Below, piece after piece: positions 1-9,530 of a stretch of DNA of 39,752 nt. Source of the DNA: Escherichia phage Ebrios; the sequence record MG966531; one strand, written 5' to 3'. Each line of letters opens with the position of its first letter. Position 1 is the stretch's first letter. The position numbers and the translations under genes were made by a program. The notes beneath the pieces are model-generated. The model did not search any database, was not told where the DNA came from, and saw nothing but the letters and a program-made list of their open reading frames with translations.

Positions 1-209
1 TCTCACAGTGAAGAAACCCAAAGTTCCCCCATAGGGTATCCCAAGGGCCGCCCCCCTCAATGGCCCCTTGAGACGCTTTGAGAGACCCTAAGGGATGGCC
101 TAAGGTTGACCATTGAGTGACCCTAAGGACTAGGCCTAGACCTAAGGGGAGACCATTAGAGGAGACTTTGAGGGGACATTGAGTGTCCTAGTGTCCCTAT
201 CTGTTACAA
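1..209 (+). repeat. Genome left end; putative direct terminal repeat region (right copy lies outside the window)
   Basis: Starts with TCTCACAGTG as at the T7 left end; ends near ...CCCTATCTGTTACA as the T7 terminal repeat does. Length cannot be verified without the right end. Confidence 0.45.
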
Positions 210-380
210 CCTCCTAAAGTATCCCATAAAGTCACCTCATAAAGTATCTCATAAAGCCACCTCATAACGTCCTTCCTAAAGCCAACACCTAAAGTCTACA
301 CCTAAAGACGCCATCGAGTAAAGGCCTATCTTAAAGTATCCCTAAAGCCAACACCTAAGGCCAACACCTAAAGATGCCTT
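210..380 (+). repeat. Array of short CCTAAAG / CATAAAG / CACCTAAAG heptamer-type repeats near the left end
   Basis: Repeated cctaaag, cataaag, acacctaaag motifs visible directly; T7 carries similar short repeats next to its terminal repeat. Confidence 0.6.
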
Positions 381-420
381 GTTGTTAGCCATAGAGAGAT
401 AATCTTAAAATCATTGTCTT

Positions 421-443
421 TAATACAACTCACTATAGAGAGA
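421..443 (+). promoter_or_regulatory. phiOL-like phage promoter variant (TAATACAACTCACTATAGAGAGA) fused to an (AG)n run
   Basis: Matches the T7 promoter 23-mer except G-to-A at -11 and at +2; followed by agagagagagag. Confidence 0.5.
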
Positions 444-498: not shown

Positions 499-535
499 TT
501 GACTTTAGGTCTAGCCTATAGGATACTTTGAGCCA
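499..535 (+). promoter_or_regulatory. Host RNAP early promoter A1 (sigma70)
   Basis: TTGACT at 499-504, 17-bp spacer, GATACT at 522-527, then ATCGAGAGGGACACGGCGAA as in the T7 A1 transcript start. Confidence 0.75.
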
Positions 536-625
536 TCGAGAGGGACACGGCGAATAACCATCCCAATTGATACCGGAGTCGACCGGATAAGTAGACAGCC
601 TGATAAGTCATACGAAAAACAGGCA

Positions 626-661
626 TTGACACCGAGAGTAACCTAAAGTAATATAATCAGC
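626..661 (+). promoter_or_regulatory. Host RNAP early promoter A2 (sigma70)
   Basis: TTGACA at 626-631, 17-bp spacer, TAATAT at 649-654. Confidence 0.6.
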
Positions 662-723
662 GTCAACACCACGGTGGCCCTCTGAAACGATATTGAAGGC
701 GTCACGGCAAAGAAAACTAGGGG

Positions 724-760
724 TTGACACTGAACGAAACACGAAGTACACTGTAAGCAA
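724..760 (+). promoter_or_regulatory. Host RNAP early promoter A3 (sigma70)
   Basis: TTGACA at 724-729, 17-bp spacer, TACACT at 747-752. Confidence 0.55.
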
Positions 761-892: not shown

Positions 893-945
893 AATGACTA
901 ACTCAAGGTCGTTCGCTAAGAGCGGCCTTTATGATAGTCACTCAA
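893..945 (+). promoter_or_regulatory. RNase III processing hairpin (R0.3-like)
   Basis: aactcaaggtcg...cggcctttatgat motif, which recurs between early genes at 1430, 2195, 3400, 6655, 14011, 18404 and 36689. Confidence 0.6.
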
Positions 946-970
946 CGAACTAACAAGAGGTAACACCAAA

Positions 971-1426
971 ATGATTTTCACTAAAGAACCTGCTAACGTC
1001 TTCTATGTGCTGGTCTCTGCGTTCCGCTCAAACCTCGACGACGCTGAGAATATGAGCAGACACCGCCATATGGTTAGCACTTTACGTGCCGCAGAAGGTC
1101 TTTATGGCTCCATTGAGTCAACCGATTTGACCGGATGCTATCGTGAGGAAATCGCAAGCGCACCGACTGAGGAAAAAACTGTACGTGTACGCTGCAAGGA
1201 CAAGGTGCAGGCACTCAATGTTGCACGTCTAGCTTGCAATGAGTGGGAACAAGATTGTGTGCTGGTATACAACTCCCAGACTCACACTGCCAGCCTGATG
1301 TACGCTAAAGGTCTCGATGGGTATAAGACCGAACGTCTGGGTAGCTTCCAAGAAGTACCTAAAGGCGCACCGCTGCAAGGCTGCTACACGATTGACGAGT
1401 TTGGCCGCCGCTGGCAAGTGCAATAA
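971..1426 (+). CDS. 0.3: Gene 0.3, T3-type S-adenosylmethionine-degrading enzyme (SAMase; anti-restriction)
   Basis: 151-aa ORF MIFTKEPANVFYVLVSAFRSNL... closely resembles the T3 gp0.3 SAMase as I remember it, not the 117-aa T7 Ocr; RBS AGAGG upstream. Confidence 0.85.
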   Translation: MIFTKEPANVFYVLVSAFRSNLDDAENMSRHRHMVSTLRAAEGLYGSIESTDLTGCYREEIASAPTEEKTVRVRCKDKVQALNVARLACNEWEQDCVLVYNSQTHTASLMYAKGLDGYKTERLGSFQEVPKGAPLQGCYTIDEFGRRWQVQ

Positions 1427-1429
1427 GTG

Positions 1430-1482
1430 ATAAACTCAAGGTCGTGCACGATGCGTGGCCTTTATGATTATCACTTTGGAAC
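1430..1482 (+). promoter_or_regulatory. RNase III processing hairpin (R0.5-like)
   Basis: aactcaaggtcgtgcacgatgcgtggcctttatgatt shares the recurring hairpin motif. Confidence 0.6.
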
Positions 1483-1501
1483 AACGCACGGGACTACTGT
1501 C

Positions 1502-1639
1502 ATGCTGAAACATTACGTTATGCCAATCAGGCACTCCACTGGTGCCACTGTATGCACTCCTGATGGGTTCGCAATGAAAGCGCGTATCGAGCGCCTTAAG
1601 CGTGAACTCCGCACCAATCGCAAACTGAACAACATCTGA
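1502..1639 (+). CDS. 0.5: Gene 0.5-like small early protein
   Basis: MLKHYVMPIRHSTGATVCTPDGFAMKARIERLKRELRTNRKLNNI resembles T7 gp0.5; the first in-frame ATG lies after the RNase III hairpin. Weak RBS. Confidence 0.5.
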   Translation: MLKHYVMPIRHSTGATVCTPDGFAMKARIERLKRELRTNRKLNNI

Positions 1640-1669
1640 TAACACACACACAACCTGAGGTAACACACT

Positions 1670-2194
1670 ATGAAACGCAATGCTAACGCTTATTATGAAC
1701 TGCTGGCCGCTGCCGTTGAGGCATTCAATGTGCGCATCCAAGAAGACCAATTGACCGAGCACCACGATTATCACGCTGCCTTGCACGAAGTGGTTGACAA
1801 GATGGTTCCGCACTGTTACTGGGAAATCTTCATGGTCATGGCCGCTGATGGTATTGACGTTGAGTTTGACGACGCTGGACAGATGCCAGACACCAAGGAC
1901 GTTACCCGAATCCTGCAAGCTCGCATCTATGAGGCGCTATATAACGACGTGCCTAGCGATAGTGGGATTGAATGGTACGAAGGCGAGGAGGAGGAGGAGT
2001 CTGAGGAGCCCTGCGAGTGGTACGTAATCAATGACGAGGAGTCTGGCCCGTATGTTGTGGCCTATTACGACTCACTAGAGGCAGCCATTGAGGCAGCCAA
2101 TGAGCGATACAACACGCTTGGCAAGCGGTGCCACGTTGAGGACGATGTCAGCTCAGAAGTGCTTTACAAGCCGGTTCCTACTGCTAACGAGTGA
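1670..2194 (+). CDS. Strongly acidic early protein of unknown function (gene 0.6 position)
   Basis: 174-aa ORF with RBS TGAGGT; contains the run EGEEEEESEEPCE. I do not recognise it as a T7 protein. Confidence 0.7.
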   Translation: MKRNANAYYELLAAAVEAFNVRIQEDQLTEHHDYHAALHEVVDKMVPHCYWEIFMVMAADGIDVEFDDAGQMPDTKDVTRILQARIYEALYNDVPSDSGIEWYEGEEEEESEEPCEWYVINDEESGPYVVAYYDSLEAAIEAANERYNTLGKRCHVEDDVSSEVLYKPVPTANE

Positions 2195-2240
2195 TAGCCT
2201 AAAGGTCGTTCTTTAATGAGCGGCCTTTATGATTACCACT
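2195..2240 (+). promoter_or_regulatory. RNase III processing hairpin (R0.7-like)
   Basis: cctaaaggtcgttctttaatgagcggcctttatgatt. Confidence 0.55.
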
Positions 2241-2268
2241 TGCAACCAATCATAAGGACAAACTTGAA

Positions 2269-3387
2269 ATGAACGTTAACGCAATCTCCGCCCGTGTCTC
2301 TGAAATTGCTGCTCTAGGTATCTCTGAGTTGACCAAGCGTCAGCTTATGTTGGTGGAGCTGGTTGCCGACATTGTAAACCACGAAACGGAAAACGGCTAC
2401 TTGACCATGAAAGAAGGCAACCTTCCGCTCACTATGATGCCCTATTGGAACAGCCTGATGATTTACTTGGATGATGCGGGCTTTGAGCTGCTGGGCAATG
2501 GTCACTTTTCGGCTGCCTTTAAGCACCACCTTCTGCCGCAAAAGGTTATCAAGGTGGGATTCAAAAAGGAGGACTCTGGGGCCGCCTATGCCGCGTTCTG
2601 CCGCATGAACCAAGGCAAGCAGGGTATACCTACCATCCACAACATTCAACGCCACGCTGGCTGCTACACTGTTGTCCTTGACGAGCTGCGCCCACTGGTG
2701 ACAACCCTATGGGGAGACGTTGACGAGAACTACGAAGACGAAAACGTGGTTGACCAGTTCAACACTGTGCGCGGGATTATCTCTTGCAACGAGACCTTTG
2801 GCGGTGGCGCTGACCAGCTCCTTGATGCTTTAGCGGAAACCGCAAAGGAAATCCGCAAGTTCTTCGACGGTATCGCAAGTTTCGATATGCACTCAGGGAA
2901 CGCAATGGTTGACCACAACGGGCACGTTATCATCACTGACCCCGTGTCTTTCACTGACAAGGCCGTCGAACATTCTCGGGACGGCTTTATGATTGACCCT
3001 GAGGAACTGCTTAAGGAAATCGAACAGCTTGCTGAGCTGCGAATAATTGAGCGATGCCGTGAGCGCAAGGCTAAGCGTGACCCGAAGGGACAATTCCGGC
3101 TCGACCTCAAGCAGCGCCAAAAGCGCCGCAAGGAATACAAGAAGGCCGAGCGCTTTTGGAAACGGGACGCTGCCAAGCGGGCACTCAAGGCGCACAACAG
3201 AAACGTGGCCTTTAAAGAGCTGGGCAGCACTCTCTGGATGAAAGCCTACTTCAACCTCCCCGATGCAAAGATGGTCGAAATGGAGGCGCAAATTGCCGCC
3301 AAGGTCGCTAACCGCAACCACAAAGCAATTGCACTGGGTCAGGCTCTCGACATTGACAAAGAACTTGATGCAATGTTTCAAGGTTAA
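2269..3387 (+). CDS. 0.7: Gene 0.7 Ser/Thr protein kinase / host transcription shut-off protein
   Basis: 372 aa; conserved LGNGHFSAA...KVGFKKEDSGAAY..FCRM..G..GIP......RHAGCYTVVLD block as in T7 gp0.7. Confidence 0.9.
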   Translation: MNVNAISARVSEIAALGISELTKRQLMLVELVADIVNHETENGYLTMKEGNLPLTMMPYWNSLMIYLDDAGFELLGNGHFSAAFKHHLLPQKVIKVGFKKEDSGAAYAAFCRMNQGKQGIPTIHNIQRHAGCYTVVLDELRPLVTTLWGDVDENYEDENVVDQFNTVRGIISCNETFGGGADQLLDALAETAKEIRKFFDGIASFDMHSGNAMVDHNGHVIITDPVSFTDKAVEHSRDGFMIDPEELLKEIEQLAELRIIERCRERKAKRDPKGQFRLDLKQRQKRRKEYKKAERFWKRDAAKRALKAHNRNVAFKELGSTLWMKAYFNLPDAKMVEMEAQIAAKVANRNHKAIALGQALDIDKELDAMFQG

Positions 3388-3399
3388 CAATGAGTCTTA

Positions 3400-3440
3400 T
3401 CTTCAAGGTCACTGCGGTGGCCTTTATAGGTACGATTTAC
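3400..3440 (+). promoter_or_regulatory. RNase III processing hairpin (R1-like)
   Basis: cttcaaggtcactgcggtggcctttatagg. Confidence 0.55.
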
Positions 3441-3459
3441 CAACACAACGAGGCACAAA

Positions 3460-6111
3460 ATGACTGTAATCGCAATCGAAAAGAACGACTTCTCCGACGT
3501 TGAGCTGGCTGTTATCCCGTTCAACACACTGGCAGACCACTACGGTGAGAAGCTGGCCCGCGAGCAGTTGGCACTTGAGCACGAAGCTTATGAAATGGGT
3601 GAGGCTCGTTTCCGCAAGATATTCGAGCGTCAGCTTAAGGCTGGTGAGGTTGCCGATAACGCTGCCGCTAAGCCGCTGGTCGCAACCCTGCTCCCCAAGA
3701 TGATTGAGCGAATCAACATTTGGTTCGAGGAGGTTTCCGCTAAGCGTGGCAAGCGCCCGACTGCCTTTAAGTTCCTGCAAGAGGTCAAGCCCGAGGCTAT
3801 CGCTTACATCACCATCAAGACCGTTCTGGGTGCTCTGACCAGTGCTGAGCAAACCACTGTGCAAGCCGCTGCGTCTGCTGTTGGTCGCGCCATTGAGGAC
3901 GAAGCCCGCTTTGGTCGCATCCGTGACCTTGAGGCTAAGCACTTCAAGAAGAACGTGGAGGAACAGCTCAACAAGCGCGTGGGCAACGTCTACAAGAAGG
4001 CTTTCCTGCAAGTGGTTGAGGCTGATATGCTGAGCAAGGGACTGATGGGTGGCGAAGCGTGGTCTAGCTGGCACAAAGAGGACTCCATTCATGTTGGTGT
4101 GCGTTGCATCGAAATGCTCATTGAGTCAACCGGTCTGGTCGTCCTTGAGCGTCAAAACGCTGGCGTTGTTGGCGCTGATGCTGAGACCCTGAGCCTTGCC
4201 TCTGAGTACGCTGACGCAATCGCCACCCGCGCTGGTGCTCTTGCTGGTATCTCCCCAATGTATCAACCTTGTGTAGTTCCGCCGAAGCCTTGGACAACCG
4301 TGACTGGCGGAGGCTACTGGGCTAACGGTCGTCGTCCGCTGGCTCTGGTGCGTACCCACGGCAAGAAGGCGCTGATGCGCTATGAGGACGTTTACATGCC
4401 TGAGGTTTACAAGGCGGTCAACCTTGCACAAGCCACCGCATGGAAAATCAACAAGAAGGTGCTGGCGGTAGCCAACGAGATTACCAAGTGGAAGCACTGC
4501 CCTGTTGAGGACATTCCGGCAATCGAGCGCGAGGAGTTGCCTGTTAAACCGGACGACATAGACGAGAACCCTGAGGCGCTGACCAACTGGAAACGCGCTG
4601 CTGCTGCTGTGTACCGCAAGGACAAGGCCCGCAAGTCTCGCCGTCTGTCCCTTGAGTTTATGCTTGAGCAGGCCAACAAGTTCGCAAACCACAAGGCCAT
4701 TTGGTTCCCTTACAACATGGACTGGCGTGGTCGCGTTTACGCGGTCTCCATGTTCAACCCGCAAGGCAACGATATGACCAAGGGCTTGCTGACTCTGGCT
4801 AAGGGCAAGGCAATCGGTAAGGAAGGTTTCTACTGGCTGAAAATCCACGGTGCAAACTGTGCTGGTGTCGATAAGGTTCCGTTCCCTGAGCGCATCAAGT
4901 TTATCGAAGACAACCACGAGCACATCATGGCGTCTGCTAAGAACCCGCTTGAGTACACTTGGTGGGCCGAACAGGATAGCCCGTTCTGCTTCCTTGCGTT
5001 CTGCTTTGAGTACGCTGGTGTGATGCACCACGGCTTGTCTTACAACTGCTCTCTGCCGCTGGCGTTCGATGGCTCCTGCTCTGGTATCCAGCACTTCTCC
5101 GCGATGCTGCGAGACGAAGTTGGTGGCCGTGCGGTGAACCTGCTCCCGAGCGAGACCGTGCAGGACATTTACGGCATCGTAGCCAAGAAGGTGAACGAAA
5201 TCCTGCAACGCGATGTTATCTCTGGCACCGATGACGAGTTGGTCACTGAAACCGACAAGACCACTGGGGAAATCACTGAGAAAACCGTACTGGGCACTCG
5301 CACTCTGGCGGGCCAGTGGCTGGCCTATGGGGTCAACCGTAGCGTGACCAAACGTTCCGTAATGACTCTGGCGTATGGCTCCAAGGAGTTCGGTTTCCGT
5401 CAGCAAGTCCTTGAGGACACTATCCGTCCGGCTATCGACTCCGGCAAGGGCCTGATGTTCACCATCCCGAACCAAGCGGCTGGCTACATGGCTAAGCTGA
5501 TTTGGGACTCTGTGAGTGTGACCGTGGTTGCTGCGGTAGAGGCCATGAAGTGGCTCCAAAGCGCCGCTAAACTGCTGGCCGCTGAGGTCAAGGACAAGAA
5601 GACTGGCGAGGTTCTGCGTAACCGCTGCGCTGTTCACTGGGTAACTCCCGATGGTTTCCCTGTGTGGCAGGAGTACCGCAAGCCGCTGCAAACCCGTCTG
5701 AACCTGATGTTCCTCGGTCAGTTCCGCTTGCAGCCAACCATCAACACCAACAAGGACTCTGGGATTGACGCGCACAAGCAGGAGTCGGGCATTGCGCCTA
5801 ACTTCGTTCACTCTCAGGACGGCTCTCACCTGCGCAAGACCGTAGTATGGGCTCACGAAAAGTACGGCATCGAGTCTTTCGCTCTGATTCACGACTCTTT
5901 CGGCACCATTCCGGCTGACGCTGGCAACCTGTTCAAGGCTGTGCGTGAGACAATGGTTGACACCTACGAGAACTGCGATGTTCTGGCTGACTTCTACGAG
6001 CAGTTTGCAGACCAGCTCCACGAGTCCCAACTGGACAAGATGCCTGCTCTGCCGAAGAAAGGTAACCTGAACCTGCGAGACATTCTTGAGTCTGACTTTG
6101 CATTCGCTTAA
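3460..6111 (+). CDS. 1: Gene 1, single-subunit DNA-dependent RNA polymerase of T7 specificity
   Basis: 883 aa, near-collinear with T7 RNAP as I remember it, including the C-terminal ...LRDILESDFAFA; the PTINTNKDS region matches T7 rather than T3, consistent with the CGACT promoters. Confidence 0.98.
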   Translation: MTVIAIEKNDFSDVELAVIPFNTLADHYGEKLAREQLALEHEAYEMGEARFRKIFERQLKAGEVADNAAAKPLVATLLPKMIERINIWFEEVSAKRGKRPTAFKFLQEVKPEAIAYITIKTVLGALTSAEQTTVQAAASAVGRAIEDEARFGRIRDLEAKHFKKNVEEQLNKRVGNVYKKAFLQVVEADMLSKGLMGGEAWSSWHKEDSIHVGVRCIEMLIESTGLVVLERQNAGVVGADAETLSLASEYADAIATRAGALAGISPMYQPCVVPPKPWTTVTGGGYWANGRRPLALVRTHGKKALMRYEDVYMPEVYKAVNLAQATAWKINKKVLAVANEITKWKHCPVEDIPAIEREELPVKPDDIDENPEALTNWKRAAAAVYRKDKARKSRRLSLEFMLEQANKFANHKAIWFPYNMDWRGRVYAVSMFNPQGNDMTKGLLTLAKGKAIGKEGFYWLKIHGANCAGVDKVPFPERIKFIEDNHEHIMASAKNPLEYTWWAEQDSPFCFLAFCFEYAGVMHHGLSYNCSLPLAFDGSCSGIQHFSAMLRDEVGGRAVNLLPSETVQDIYGIVAKKVNEILQRDVISGTDDELVTETDKTTGEITEKTVLGTRTLAGQWLAYGVNRSVTKRSVMTLAYGSKEFGFRQQVLEDTIRPAIDSGKGLMFTIPNQAAGYMAKLIWDSVSVTVVAAVEAMKWLQSAAKLLAAEVKDKKTGEVLRNRCAVHWVTPDGFPVWQEYRKPLQTRLNLMFLGQFRLQPTINTNKDSGIDAHKQESGIAPNFVHSQDGSHLRKTVVWAHEKYGIESFALIHDSFGTIPADAGNLFKAVRETMVDTYENCDVLADFYEQFADQLHESQLDKMPALPKKGNLNLRDILESDFAFA

Positions 6112-6720: not shown

Positions 6721-7743
6721 ATGATGAACATCAAGACCAACCCATACAAAGCTGTGTCCTTCAACGAGAAATCCGTTGAGAAGGCGCTCAAGCGTTCGCA
6801 CTACCTGATTGCTGACATCAAGTATGATGGTGTGCGCGGGAACACTCTGGTCAAACCGTCTCAAGGTGCTTGCTGGCTCTCTCGGGTATCGAAACCGATT
6901 CCGGCGATTGAGCACCTGAACGATGGCGCTGCCCGTTGGGACAACCTGCTCAAGGACAACCGCTGCATGTTCCCGACTGGCTTTATGCTCGATGGCGAGC
7001 TGATGGTTGACGGTGTGGATTTCAACACTGGCTCCGGCCTGCTGCGAACCAAGTGGCTAGACTCCAAGAATCAGGAGTTCCATAATGAGTTCCTGCCGCG
7101 CAATGTCAAGAAGTCCGAGAAGATTCCGTTCCGTCTGGACGCTGGCCTGCTCAAGGTCGTAATTTACGCTGTGCTCCCGATTGAAGTGGTGGAGTCCGGC
7201 GATGACTATCCGGTCAAGAACCTGCTGATGCAGGAACACGTCAAGAACATGCTGCCTCTGCTCCGCGCTCACTTCCCTGAGATTAGCTGGCAAGCGGCTG
7301 AGTCCCATGAGGTGTACGATATGACCGAACTGTCTGCACTGTACGAAATGAAACGCGAGGAGGGTCACGAAGGTCTCATTGTGAAAGACCCGAGCGACAT
7401 CTACAAGCGCGGCAAGAAGTCTGGGTGGTACAAACTTAAGCCGGAACAAGAGGCTGACGGCATCATCCAAGGCGTCAACTGGGGAACAAAGGGCTTAGCC
7501 AACGAGGGCAAGGTAATCGGCTTTAGTGTGCTTCTTGAGTCTGGCCGTCTGGTAGATGCCAACAACGTCTCACGCGTGCTGATGGACGAGTTCACCGCCA
7601 ACGTTAAGGAGCACGGTGCGGACTATTACAACGGCTGGCAGTGCCAGATTGCCTATATGGAGGAGACCAAAGATGGCTCACTGCGTCACCCGTCTTTCAG
7701 TTGCTTCCGAGGAACTGAGGACAATCCAACAGAGAAGATATAA
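6721..7743 (+). CDS. 1.3: Gene 1.3 ATP-dependent DNA ligase
   Basis: Starts MMNIKTNPYKAVSF; active-site lysine motif IADIKYDGVRG; ends ...SLRHPSF..FRGTEDNP.EK as T7 ligase does. Confidence 0.95.
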   Translation: MMNIKTNPYKAVSFNEKSVEKALKRSHYLIADIKYDGVRGNTLVKPSQGACWLSRVSKPIPAIEHLNDGAARWDNLLKDNRCMFPTGFMLDGELMVDGVDFNTGSGLLRTKWLDSKNQEFHNEFLPRNVKKSEKIPFRLDAGLLKVVIYAVLPIEVVESGDDYPVKNLLMQEHVKNMLPLLRAHFPEISWQAAESHEVYDMTELSALYEMKREEGHEGLIVKDPSDIYKRGKKSGWYKLKPEQEADGIIQGVNWGTKGLANEGKVIGFSVLLESGRLVDANNVSRVLMDEFTANVKEHGADYYNGWQCQIAYMEETKDGSLRHPSFSCFRGTEDNPTEKI

Positions 7744-8137
7744 GCTAGACCCTGCGGCTCCTTCCGGAGTCGCTTCTTCCAAAGGTAAGCCGATTGGCTC
7801 ACGAAGAAAGGATGGCTACTGGGTTCTGTCCTGTGGTGGCAAGCACATCCTTGCGCATAGGGTAGTCTGGGTGCTTCACAATGGGCCAATACCTGATGGC
7901 TTGGTCATTGACCACATCAACAGGAATCCTAGTGACAACCGGATAGAGAACCTACGATGCGTACCGCAATCGGTGAACCTTGCGAACGTCAGTGTTCGGC
8001 CACATTGTAAGAGCGGCGAGAAGTACATTGCGTTCGATAGTAGAACTGGTCGATTCACTGTGAGAATCAGGCGGGTTAACCACGGAACCTTCGCCACTCT
8101 TGAGGAGGCGATAGCGAAGCGCGACTCTGTGATGTAA
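7673..8137 (+). CDS. HNH homing endonuclease with C-terminal AP2-like DNA-binding domain
   Basis: HNH motif HRVVWVLHNGPIPDGLVIDHINRNPSDNRIENLR....N and C-terminal GEKYIAFDSRTGRFTVRIRRVNHGTFATLEEA. ATG at 7673 has RBS GGAGGAG; the open frame extends up to the GTG at 7616, so the exact start is uncertain. Confidence 0.8.
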   Translation: MAHCVTRLSVASEELRTIQQRRYKLDPAAPSGVASSKGKPIGSRRKDGYWVLSCGGKHILAHRVVWVLHNGPIPDGLVIDHINRNPSDNRIENLRCVPQSVNLANVSVRPHCKSGEKYIAFDSRTGRFTVRIRRVNHGTFATLEEAIAKRDSVM

Positions 8138-9125: not shown

Positions 9126-9309
9126 CCAACGCCAAGCCCCAACCTACCGTAATGCGTCAGACGACAAGGACTTTCCGTCCAGCCCACATCATAACCTGTG
9201 CTCCGATTGGTGCCATAGGCAGTGGGAGTCTGCCCTGAATCAGGGAGACCATCGAGCCGCTGACGCCTACATGAAGATGTACGAAATGTGGAAAGCGAGG
9301 AACCAATAA
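9118..9309 (+). CDS. 1.8: Gene 1.8 protein
   Basis: [16 protein letters not shown]...[10 protein letters not shown]...[13 protein letters not shown] resembles T7 gp1.8; start overlaps the 1.7 stop. Confidence 0.7.
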
Positions 9310-9530
9310 TGACTACTCTGTATGATACAACTACCAACAATAACATGGACAAAGGGTCTGCCGTGGTGGAAAACCGGAAGTTCTGGGCCACCGTCCAGAC
9401 CGCTGAGCACTCCTACGAAATGCCCATTTACGCTGTGAGCCTTGAAGAGGCCACCGAGCTGGCTGAGCGTCAATACGTTCCGGCAGGCTTTGAGGTAATC
9501 CGAGTGCGTCCCTGCCGACTGCCGCGTTAA
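9309..9530 (+). CDS. 2: Gene 2, inhibitor of host RNA polymerase
   Basis: ...[42 protein letters not shown] as in T7 gp2. Confidence 0.9.

What the first reader, a model, noticed from the sequence alone, without database searches (positions are those of the whole stretch)
1670..2194. Highly acidic 174-aa early protein: candidate DNA-mimic anti-defence factor
This ORF lies in the early anti-host region between the SAMase gene and the 0.7 kinase. By my hand count it has about 41 Asp/Glu against about 11 Lys/Arg, with a run EGEEEEESEEPCE, and I cannot match it to a T7 early protein. Strongly acidic small early proteins in this neighbourhood are typically DNA mimics such as Ocr. Together with the T3-type 0.3 next door it may form a stacked anti-restriction module.
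Basis: partly seen in the sequence, partly recalled or inferred. Interest (0 to 1): 0.7.

Follow-up and report, generated by a model that had tools for sequence, protein, structure and literature searches.

The report
Long-form Ocr DNA-mimic anti-restriction gene
The acidic 174-residue early protein is a clear homologue of phage T7's Ocr, the classic DNA-mimic that blocks host restriction. It is an ordinary member of a known family, here carrying an extra uncharacterised C-terminal domain and sitting next to a second anti-restriction gene (SAMase).

Summary
The ORF at 1670..2194 (+) is real: 174 aa, 41 Asp/Glu against 11 Lys/Arg, pI 4.2, net charge about -30. The window is Escherichia phage Ebrios, and this is gene ebrios_3, deposited as "hypothetical protein".

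It is not an orphan. Residues 7-97 match Pfam PF08684 "DNA mimic ocr" (E 5e-26). They are 50% identical to T7 gp0.3. The predicted fold matches solved Ocr structures. The dimer-interface residues F54 and A58 and 16 of 22 T7 acidic positions are kept.

The statement that no T7 early protein matches is wrong.

It is the long Ocr form, as in K1F gene 0.3: Ocr core, then an acidic linker, then a ~50-aa beta-beta-alpha-beta module. That module has no Pfam family. It shows suggestive but unproven similarity to the T7 RNA polymerase inhibitor Gp2 (hhalign 85%), and Gp2's essential Arg58 is replaced by an invariant Glu.

A T3-type SAMase cassette lies upstream. SAMase next to Ocr occurs in only 15 of 1028 phage records.

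Verdict: an ordinary member of a known family, of low to moderate interest.

The parts
1670..2194 (+). Long-form Ocr (gp0.3-type DNA mimic) CDS, 174 aa; Escherichia phage Ebrios gene ebrios_3
   Evidence: ORF. 100% identical to the NCBI protein 'hypothetical protein ebrios_3'. PF08684, phrog_2568 and PDB 1s7z matches.
1670..1978 (+). Ocr core domain, residues 1-103 (four helices: 7-25, 35-45, 50-60, 78-96)
   Evidence: Pfam match over residues 7-97. AF2 helices with pLDDT mostly 86-95. Foldseek hits to 9ex7_C, 8q56_B, 8v45_O and 1s7z at 49-50% identity. 45 of 90 residues identical to T7 Ocr, F54/A58 kept, 16 of 22 acidic positions kept.
1979..2017 (+). Acidic linker, residues 104-116 (EGEEEEESEEPCE; 9 D/E, 0 K/R). 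It corresponds to the acidic C-terminal tail of short Ocr proteins.
   Evidence: Composition. In the alignment, short forms end inside this acidic run.
2018..2167 (+). C-terminal beta-beta-alpha-beta(-beta) module, residues 117-166. It is specific to long Ocr proteins, has no Pfam family, and is possibly Gp2-like.
   Evidence: AF2 strands 117-121, 129-133, 154-158 and 164-166 and helix 136-150. No Pfam hit at E<=10. A profile search of 1.84 billion representatives found it essentially only in Ocr-long proteins, plus P0124 and P0128. hhalign to Gp2 gave 84.6%.
1657..1661 (+). Shine-Dalgarno GAGGT, 8 nt upstream of the ATG
   Evidence: Read directly from the sequence.
971..1426 (+). T3-type SAM lyase (SAMase) gene, the partner anti-restriction gene
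   Evidence: PF23780 E 2.9e-44. 88% nucleotide identity to T3 gene 0.3.
1502..1639 (+). Small 45-aa 0.6-type ORF immediately upstream, on the same RNase III fragment as the Ocr gene
   Evidence: phrog_8393 E 1.3e-25. Orthologues in relatives carry PF26851 Phage_T7_0_6. IME15 note '0.6A'.
893..950 (+). RNase III-type processing hairpin (R0.3 equivalent); left boundary of the SAMase cassette
   Evidence: Fold -20.8 kcal/mol, z -5.2. The T3 match is annotated 'RNase III recognition site R0.3'. Homology to the SAMase-less relative L052 ends at 936.
1426..1483 (+). RNase III-type hairpin (R0.5 equivalent) between SAMase and the 0.6-like/Ocr pair
   Evidence: Fold z -3.3. Aligned with the other hairpins at 83% mean column identity. 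T3 annotation R0.5.
2192..2250 (+). RNase III-type hairpin downstream of the Ocr gene, before the kinase gene
499..752 (+). Three sigma-70-type early promoters (499-527, 626-654, 724-752) that would drive the early operon
   Evidence: Consensus scan, 9-10 of 12 matches. The positions correspond to A1-A3 of T7-like phages (established knowledge).
2269..3387 (+). gp0.7-type serine/threonine kinase, the downstream neighbour
   Evidence: phrog_2828 E 6e-148.

Best explanation
The ORF encodes a long-form member of the Ocr (T7 gp0.3) family. It is inferred to be transcribed by host RNA polymerase from the early promoters as DNA enters the cell. RNase III would release it on a fragment together with a small 0.6-type ORF. 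The N-terminal ~100 residues should fold into the four-helix Ocr domain and dimerise through the conserved F54/A58 interface. The conserved Asp/Glu array would imitate the phosphate backbone of bent B-form DNA. [quoted passage not shown] The upstream T3-type SAMase acts in parallel by destroying S-adenosylmethionine, the cofactor these systems need. After the acidic linker comes a ~50-residue beta-beta-alpha-beta module that T7 Ocr lacks. T7 Ocr truncated at residue 99 is still active, so this module is most likely an accessory domain on a flexible tether at the tips of the dimer, not part of the mimic. Shown here: homology, fold, conserved key residues and gene context. Inferred: dimerisation, the targets, and everything about the role of the C-terminal module.
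For: Family and fold:
- Pfam PF08684 'DNA mimic ocr', E 4.7e-26, 91.6 bits against a cut-off of 25, residues 7-97.
- phrog_2568 'ocr-like anti-restriction', E 1.7e-54, residues 1-150.
- phmmer to PDB 1s7z/2y7c Ocr, E 2.5e-22.
- AF2 model with four helices at the T7 Ocr positions.
- The eight best Foldseek PDB hits are all Ocr chains, at 49-50% identity.

Key residues:
- 45 of 90 residues are identical to T7 Ocr without a gap.
- 16 of 22 acidic positions are retained, including the whole 60-68 patch and D74.
- F54 and A58 are invariant in 46 family members.
- Literature: the E59-D67/D73 patch is the most important for activity, and Ocr99 is still active (PMC3439906). F54/A58 are needed for dimerisation and for full R-M/BREX inhibition (PMC7261183, PMC9122126). 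A distant Ocr homologue, SP6 Gp5, also inhibits BREX (PMC11341690).

Context and distribution:
- Early promoters and RNase III hairpins flank the gene.
- The long form is widespread and conserved: 107 of the 120 best hits, and K1F gene 0.3 is annotated 'antirestriction protein'.
Against: There are no experimental data for any long-form Ocr. Six of T7's 22 core acidic positions are lost, although three new ones are gained. I could not inspect the surface charge geometry of the model, and no dimer was modelled. The loop at residues 61-80 is predicted with low confidence (pLDDT 52-57). Ebrios was isolated and propagated on E. coli C (PMC6013611), which I recall lacks a type I R-M system, so the gene was not under such selection in the laboratory. 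A conserved extra domain could redirect or change the activity.
Confidence: 0.85

Rival explanations
1. The protein is mainly a host-transcription inhibitor. The C-terminal module would be a diverged copy of the RNA polymerase inhibitor Gp2. It would dock the Ocr DNA mimic, which in T7 already binds the RNAP DNA channel, onto host RNA polymerase. That would give an early shut-off function beyond anti-restriction.
For: hhalign of a 107-sequence C-module profile against a 108-sequence Gp2 profile gives probability 84.6%, P 6.8e-6, over 38 columns spanning beta1-beta2-helix. Controls are far lower: 120 column-shuffled alignments score 9.0 +/- 1.9 (max 14.2) against 30.5, reversed scores 12.4, and Gp2 against the Ocr N-domain scores 6.0. 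The C-module HMM picks the phage's own gp2 ORF as best non-self hit among 460 six-frame ORFs (E 0.0035; the next is 0.61). Foldseek matches RNAP/Gp2 chains 4llg_M and 4lk0_M at 24-25% identity with TM 0.47-0.53. T7 Ocr binds RNAP (PMC7064336).
Against: The Foldseek matches are not significant (E 0.65-0.9, probability 0.41), and T4 Dmd and designed proteins score similarly. There is no Pfam PF16857 hit, and the reciprocal Gp2 HMM search is not significant (E 3.2). Gp2's essential R56 and R58 (PMC3541766) are conserved in 106 and 108 of 108 Gp2 sequences. In the low-confidence beta3 part of the alignment, R58 falls on a Glu present in 105 of 107 C modules, and R58E abolishes Gp2 activity. The phage also keeps a normal gp2 (9309..9530, PF16857 E 1.8e-25).
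Confidence: 0.12
2. The C-terminal module is a counter-counter-defence device. It would mask or alter Ocr so that systems which sense Ocr, such as PARIS (AriA/AriB), are not triggered, while restriction inhibition is kept.
For: PARIS is triggered by direct binding of T7 Ocr and of other small acidic proteins, possibly through positively charged pores in the AriA hexamer (PMC11464382). Single changes such as F54V can separate PARIS triggering from EcoKI inhibition (PMC9122126). The module has been gained or lost repeatedly among closely related Ocr cores: short forms are 75-78% identical to the Ebrios core, against 50% for T7. The same module, with the same acidic linker, is fused to an unrelated N-terminal domain in the first early gene of another RNAP-encoding phage contig (P0124/L091). 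That suggests a portable accessory function.
Against: This is pure inference with no direct evidence. F54, the residue changed in PARIS escape mutants, is unchanged here. The module itself is acidic (12 D/E against 4 K/R), so it would not obviously hide negative charge.
Confidence: 0.15
3. The ORF is merely an acidic gene 0.4-0.6-type early protein with an unrelated or no anti-defence role, and the acidity is incidental.
For: It occupies the map position of T7/T3 genes 0.4-0.65, between 0.3 and 0.7.
Against: The Ocr family assignment is unambiguous. The 0.6-type protein is the separate 45-aa ORF at 1502..1639.
Confidence: 0.02

Closest known systems
T7 gp0.3 Ocr (PDB 1s7z; Pfam PF08684)
   Same: Homologous over residues 8-97 with no gap and 50% identity. 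It has the same four helices, the conserved dimer-interface residues F54/A58, 16 of 22 acidic positions, and an acidic stretch after helix 4. It is an early class I gene between the early promoters and gene 0.7.
   Different: 174 aa against 117 aa, with an extra ~50-aa beta-beta-alpha-beta module after the acidic tail. It is not the first gene of the genome: a SAMase and a 0.6-type ORF precede it. Six core acidic positions have changed.
Long-form Ocr proteins: K1F gene 0.3 'antirestriction protein' (DQ111067, 169 aa), IME15 D876_gp03 'ocr-like anti-restriction', Kosakonia phage Kc166A 'protein Ocr'
   Same: The same two-domain architecture. IME15 is 92% identical and K1F 55% identical over residues 19-168. 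These are the true family of this protein.
   Different: K1F-type phages carry it as the first early gene with no SAMase. None has been characterised biochemically as far as the held literature shows.
T3 gp0.3 SAMase / SAM lyase (the neighbour, not the ORF itself)
   Same: A functional analogue at the same locus. Both defeat type I R-M and BREX (bioRxiv 10.1101/2023.02.27.530186).
   Different: An unrelated fold and mechanism: SAM cleavage and MetK inhibition against DNA mimicry. The literature usually describes them as alternatives at the gp0.3 locus (PMC8594841). Here both are present.
T7 Gp2, host RNA polymerase inhibitor (PF16857; PDB 4llg)
   Same: The C-terminal module has the same size and beta-beta-alpha-beta order. 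It shares a motif around the helix (SLEEAxExAxxxYxxxG). hhalign gives 85%.
   Different: No Pfam match. The invariant Arg56-Val-Arg58-Pro that binds the beta' jaw is replaced by His/Lys-Val-Glu. The module is fused to Ocr and is not free-standing.
SP6 Gp5 and other short Ocr homologues
   Same: The same Ocr core. SP6 Gp5 has been shown to inhibit Salmonella BREX (PMC11341690), which supports transfer of function across the family.
   Different: Short forms lack the C module.

Membership tests
Ocr / gp0.3 DNA mimic (Pfam PF08684) | Sequence match to the family profile above the curated threshold | tested here: met
   91.6 bits against a gathering cut-off of 25, E 4.7e-26, profile positions 5-95 of 101. 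phrog_2568 E 1.7e-54. phmmer to T7 Ocr chains E 2.5e-22.
Ocr / gp0.3 DNA mimic (Pfam PF08684) | Four-helix Ocr fold | tested here: met
   AF2 helices 7-25, 35-45, 50-60 and 78-96. Foldseek ranks 1-8 are all Ocr chains, probability 1.0, target TM 0.62-0.70. The loop at residues 61-80 has low confidence.
Ocr / gp0.3 DNA mimic (Pfam PF08684) | Dimer-interface residues (T7 F54, A58) | tested here: met
   F54 and A58 are present and invariant in 46 of 46 aligned family members. Their role is taken from PMC7261183 and PMC9122126. Dimerisation itself was not modelled.
Ocr / gp0.3 DNA mimic (Pfam PF08684) | Array of surface Asp/Glu that mimics DNA phosphates, including the critical 59-67/73 patch | tested here: met
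   16 of 22 T7 acidic positions are kept. D60, D63, E65, D67, D68, D74 and D77 are all acidic and nearly invariant in the family. The importance of the patch comes from PMC3439906.
Ocr / gp0.3 DNA mimic (Pfam PF08684) | Charge spacing that matches B-form DNA on the folded dimer | not testable with these tools
   Model coordinates are not exposed and no dimer prediction is offered.
Ocr / gp0.3 DNA mimic (Pfam PF08684) | Early (class I) expression from host-RNAP promoters | tested here: met
   By position only. Three sigma-70-like promoters at 499-752 and RNase III-type hairpins flank the gene, and it lies upstream of the phage RNAP gene. Expression was not measured.
Ocr / gp0.3 DNA mimic (Pfam PF08684) | Binding and inhibition of type I R-M or BREX methyltransferase | not testable with these tools
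   Needs biochemistry or plating assays.
Gp2 RNA polymerase inhibitor (Pfam PF16857), C-terminal module only | Match to the family profile | tested here: not met
   No Pfam hit at E<=10 for the module. The Gp2 HMM against the ORF gives E 3.2 in a 460-ORF database.
Gp2 RNA polymerase inhibitor (Pfam PF16857), C-terminal module only | Remote homology by profile-profile comparison, and the same fold | tested here: inconclusive
   hhalign 84.6%, P 6.8e-6, well above shuffled controls. Foldseek to 4llg_M gives E 0.65 and TM 0.47-0.53. The fold is common among small phage proteins.
Gp2 RNA polymerase inhibitor (Pfam PF16857), C-terminal module only | Invariant Arg56 and Arg58 in strand beta3, which contact the beta' jaw | tested here: not met
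   Gp2 has R56 in 106 of 108 and R58 in 108 of 108 sequences. The module has H/K-V-E, with Glu in 105 of 107 at the position aligned to R58; this part of the alignment has low confidence. R58E abolishes Gp2 function (PMC3541766).
T7 gene 0.6 family (PF26851) | Sequence membership | tested here: not met
   The acidic ORF has only the Ocr match. The 0.6-type protein is the separate ORF 1502..1639.

The most novel reading that the evidence does not exclude
Long Ocr proteins would be two-part anti-host effectors. The conserved C-terminal beta-beta-alpha-beta module would be an ancient, diverged relative of the RNAP inhibitor Gp2. It would be portable, since it is also fused through the same acidic linker to an unrelated early-protein domain in P0124. 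It would give the DNA mimic a second host target or shield it from Ocr-sensing abortive-infection systems. In the Ebrios/IME15 clade this sits beside a horizontally acquired T3-type SAMase cassette, giving three layers of anti-restriction in one early operon.
Probability: 0.3. Interest if true: 0.55.

Novelty: new member of a known kind. Interest (0 to 1): 0.3.

Why it matters
For annotation, ebrios_3 should be named an Ocr-family anti-restriction protein instead of "hypothetical protein".

For biology there are three modest points.

1. About one in eight Ocr-bearing phage records (73 of 566) carries the long form, and its extra domain has never been studied. Any work that uses T7 Ocr as the model for "Ocr-like" genes ignores it.

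2. The common statement that T7-like phages carry either Ocr or SAMase is not strictly true. A small set from four genera carries both, which implies selection for redundancy against SAM-dependent defences.

3. The SAMase cassette is bounded by repeated RNase III hairpins. That suggests how early anti-defence genes are shuffled between T7-like phages.

None of this changes current understanding of DNA mimicry.

Tried and rejected
- **Orphan acidic protein or 0.6-family protein:** rejected by the Pfam, PHROG and PDB matches.
- **BLASTP of the C module against the phage's Gp2:** no alignment.
- **Pfam on the C module and three homologues at E<=10:** nothing meaningful. PHROGs gave only E 0.057.
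- **Profile search of the C module against 1.84 billion representatives:** 9 hits. The multi-stretch ones (P0122, P0123, P0125-P0127) are repetitive or low-complexity proteins and were discarded.
- **Foldseek PDB of the C module:** no hit below E 0.6. T4 Dmd antitoxin had TM 0.55-0.58 but 4% identity, so I did not treat it as homology.
- **First Gp2 homologue search with a single sequence:** only 4 proteins and 1 locus. I had to repeat it with alignments.
- **IMG/VR sample of 42 Ocr loci:** SAMase was found only in the IME15 copy, which underestimated the tandem. A fused SAMase+Ocr query then found 15 records.
- **Literature:** I found no paper that discusses the long Ocr form or Ocr+SAMase co-occurrence. 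The Ebrios genome announcement does not mention the gene.

Full report
**Observation.** A GAGGT ribosome-binding site lies 8 nt upstream. The exact composition is 26 Glu + 15 Asp = 41 acidic residues against 11 Lys/Arg, with pI 4.18 and net charge about -30 at pH 7. The run EGEEEEESEEPCE occupies residues 104-116. At 23.6% Asp+Glu it is the most acidic ORF of 100 aa or more in the window. The neighbours are as described. A SAM lyase lies at 971..1426 (PF23780, E 2.9e-44). A gp0.7-type kinase lies at 2269..3387 (phrog_2828, E 6e-148), followed by the phage RNA polymerase at 3460..6111.

**Identity of the window.** The protein is 100% identical to "hypothetical protein ebrios_3 [Escherichia phage Ebrios]", on a contig of 39,752 bp. 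That is the length of the window and of the published genome (PMC6013611). The genome announcement does not discuss this gene. The closest records are Stenotrophomonas phage IME15 and Aeromonas phages avDM11-UST, PZL-Ah1 and KFSA9. In those records the orthologue is already labelled "ocr-like anti-restriction" (RefSeq IME15) or "overcome classical restriction gp0.3" (avDM11-UST).

**What it is.**
- Pfam PF08684 "DNA mimic ocr" scores 91.6 bits against a cut-off of 25 (E 4.7e-26) over residues 7-97.
- PHROG 2568 "ocr-like anti-restriction" gives E 1.7e-54 over residues 1-150.
- phmmer against PDB sequences finds T7 Ocr (1s7z, 2y7c and complexes) at E 2.5e-22.
- The alignment to T7 Ocr is gapless over residues 8-97, with 45 of 90 identities.
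- An AlphaFold2 model built on 46 family members (mean pLDDT 80.9) has helices at 7-25, 35-45, 50-60 and 78-96.
- Its eight best Foldseek PDB matches are all Ocr chains, free or bound to BrxX/PglX, AriA, a Vibrio type I methyltransferase, or RNA polymerase.

**Functional residues.** T7 studies show three relevant things. Residues 99-116 are dispensable. The acidic patch E59-D67 plus D73 (numbering without Met1) matters most (PMC3439906). [quoted passage not shown] In Ebrios, F54 and A58 are present and are invariant in all 46 aligned family members. Sixteen of T7's 22 acidic positions in the core are retained, including every position of the critical patch (D60, D63, E65, D67, D68, D74, D77). 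Three new acidic positions appear. I could not examine the three-dimensional charge pattern or model the dimer.

**Architecture.** Of the 120 best database hits, 107 are 160 aa or longer (most 166-178 aa) and 12 are 109-117 aa. The alignment shows that short forms end within the acidic run. Long forms continue into a conserved ~50-residue segment.
- The long form includes K1F gene 0.3, annotated "antirestriction protein" in 2005, as well as CLB_P1 and Kosakonia phage Kc166A.
- In the phage collection, 566 records carry an Ocr homologue and 73 cover at least 80% of the long form.
- AF2 predicts the extra segment as strands 117-121 and 129-133, helix 136-150, and strands 154-158 and 164-166. This holds in the full-length model and for the module modelled alone (pLDDT 84.9).
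- The full-length pTM of 0.56 suggests no fixed orientation between the two domains.
- Family invariants of the module are V119, D122, G126, L136, A139, Y147, G151, V156, E157, D159 and P168.

**What the C-terminal module might be.** It has no Pfam family. A profile search of 1.84 billion representative proteins found it almost only in Ocr-long proteins. Two exceptions are informative. P0128 is a 62-aa free-standing copy. P0124 has an unrelated N-terminal domain (phrog_9294) joined by a similar acidic linker to the same module. P0124 is the first gene upstream of an RNA polymerase gene on its contig, which is the gene 0.3 position. So the module looks portable.

Foldseek against the PDB gave no significant hit. 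Among the top matches were T7 Gp2 bound to E. coli RNA polymerase (4llg_M, 4lk0_M: E 0.65-0.9, 24-25% identity, TM 0.47-0.53) and T4 Dmd. I followed the Gp2 lead as follows.
- BLASTP against the phage's own Gp2 finds nothing.
- hhalign of an 18-sequence module alignment against Ebrios Gp2 gives 57%.
- With 107 module sequences and 108 Gp2 sequences it rises to 84.6% (P 6.8e-6, score 30.5, 38 columns covering beta1, beta2 and the helix).
- Controls are much lower. Column-shuffled Gp2 alignments score 9.0 +/- 1.9 (max 14.2, n = 120), reversed scores 12.4, and Gp2 against the acidic Ocr N-domain scores 6.0.
- A module HMM searched against all 460 six-frame ORFs of the window ranks gp2 first after self (E 0.0035; the next is 0.61). 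The reciprocal search is not significant.

Evidence against functional equivalence:
- Gp2 needs R56 and R58 in strand beta3 to bind the beta' jaw, and R58E abolishes activity (PMC3541766).
- These residues are conserved in 106 and 108 of 108 Gp2 sequences. The module has H/K-V-E there, with Glu in 105 of 107 at the position aligned to R58. That part of the alignment has low confidence.
- In the BFVD viral structure library the fold is shared by many small uncharacterised phage proteins.

I conclude that common ancestry with Gp2 is possible, roughly even odds. Gp2-type binding to the beta' jaw is unlikely.

**Gene context and the "stacked module".** Three sigma-70-type promoters lie at 499-527, 626-654 and 724-752. 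Conserved hairpins lie at 893-950, 1426-1483 and 2192-2250, with a further one at 3385-3460. The first two correspond to the sites annotated R0.3 and R0.5 in T3. Together they would divide the early transcript into SAMase | 0.6-type ORF + Ocr | kinase | RNAP. So SAMase and Ocr are co-expressed early genes.

The BASEL phage paper states that Studiervirinae carry either an Ocr-type mimic or a SAM hydrolase at this locus (PMC8594841). A fused SAMase+Ocr-core query found both genes adjacent in 15 of 1028 records that hold either gene. These are:
- the IME15/Ebrios clade;
- Escherichia phages AV103, P151 and P694;
- Salmonella phage RPN15;
- Enterobacter phage IME278;
- Shigella phage A7, where the order is reversed.

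Inspection of four of them (RPN15, AV103, IME278, A7), together with the IME15 clade, shows that the tandem spans four genera. In those four the Ocr is short (111-125 aa). Only the IME15/Ebrios clade is seen to pair a SAMase with a long Ocr. P151 and P694 were not inspected.

A metagenomic relative whose RNA polymerase is 99% identical (L052/L053) has the 0.6-type ORF, long Ocr and kinase but no SAMase. Its homology to the window stops at 936, inside the first hairpin, and resumes at 1506. The intervening SAMase cassette is 88% identical to T3 at the nucleotide level. The SAMase therefore looks like a T3-type cassette gained or lost between repeated RNase III hairpins.

**Mechanism.**
- Shown: family membership, fold, conserved interface and acidic residues, and early-operon position.
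- Inferred from the family (PMC3439906, PMC7261183, PMC11341690): a dimeric DNA mimic that blocks the DNA-binding sites of type I R-M enzymes and of BREX PglX/BrxX.
- Inferred from T3 work (bioRxiv 10.1101/2023.02.27.530186): the SAMase removes the SAM cofactor in parallel.
- Open: the role of the C module. Candidate roles are a second host target, including RNAP, evasion of Ocr-sensing systems such as PARIS (PMC11464382), or oligomerisation.

**Verdict.** The finding is not novel as a kind: it is a database-recognisable Ocr family member left unnamed in one GenBank record. Residual interest lies in the unstudied C-terminal module and in the uncommon Ocr+SAMase pairing.

Noticed in passing
window 937-1505 compared with L052 3689-3844: The SAMase cassette is absent from a relative whose RNAP is 99% identical. 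Homology breaks at the R0.3 hairpin and resumes at the 0.6-type ORF. The cassette is flanked by two copies of the RNase III hairpin and is 88% identical to T3 at the nucleotide level. This suggests cassette exchange at the hairpin repeats.
   Followed up: partly
L091 987-1382 (P0124): A 131-aa protein with an unrelated N-terminal domain (phrog_9294, unknown function), an acidic linker, and the same C-terminal module as long Ocr. It is the first gene upstream of an RNA polymerase gene on a 4.2-kb contig. The module appears portable between early proteins.
   Followed up: partly
L092 131-319 (P0128): A free-standing 62-aa copy of the C-terminal module on a 528-bp metagenomic contig. No context is available.
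   Followed up: no
L090 (Shigella phage A7) 1075-1946; L087, L088, L089: SAMase and short Ocr genes are adjacent in Berlinvirus (order Ocr then SAMase), Teetrevirus, Kayfunavirus and another Teseptimavirus. The tandem has therefore arisen more than once.
   Followed up: partly
window 9309-9530: The phage's own Gp2 (PF16857, E 1.8e-25) is 73 aa. It has a 9-residue N-terminal extension relative to the 64-aa T7 protein, if the upstream ATG is used.
   Followed up: no
window 418-442: The sequence TTAATACAACTCACTATAGAGAGA resembles a T7/T3-type phage RNA polymerase promoter. It lies upstream of the host-type early promoters, like phiOL in T7.
   Followed up: no
window 7616-8137: A 173-aa ORF (GTG start) with an HNH-like motif (DHINRNPSDNRIENLR) lies between the ligase-region genes. 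It may be a homing endonuclease, and may be the ORF the genome paper calls unique to Ebrios. It was not searched.
   Followed up: no
window 180-400: A dense array of short direct repeats (cctaaag / acctcataaag variants) lies near the left end, as is typical next to the terminal repeat of T7-like genomes.
   Followed up: no
window 1436-1918 (-) and 1794-2027 (+): Long overlapping ORFs (160 aa and 77 aa) lie in other frames across the Ocr gene. They are most likely by-products of the biased codon content, not genes.
   Followed up: no
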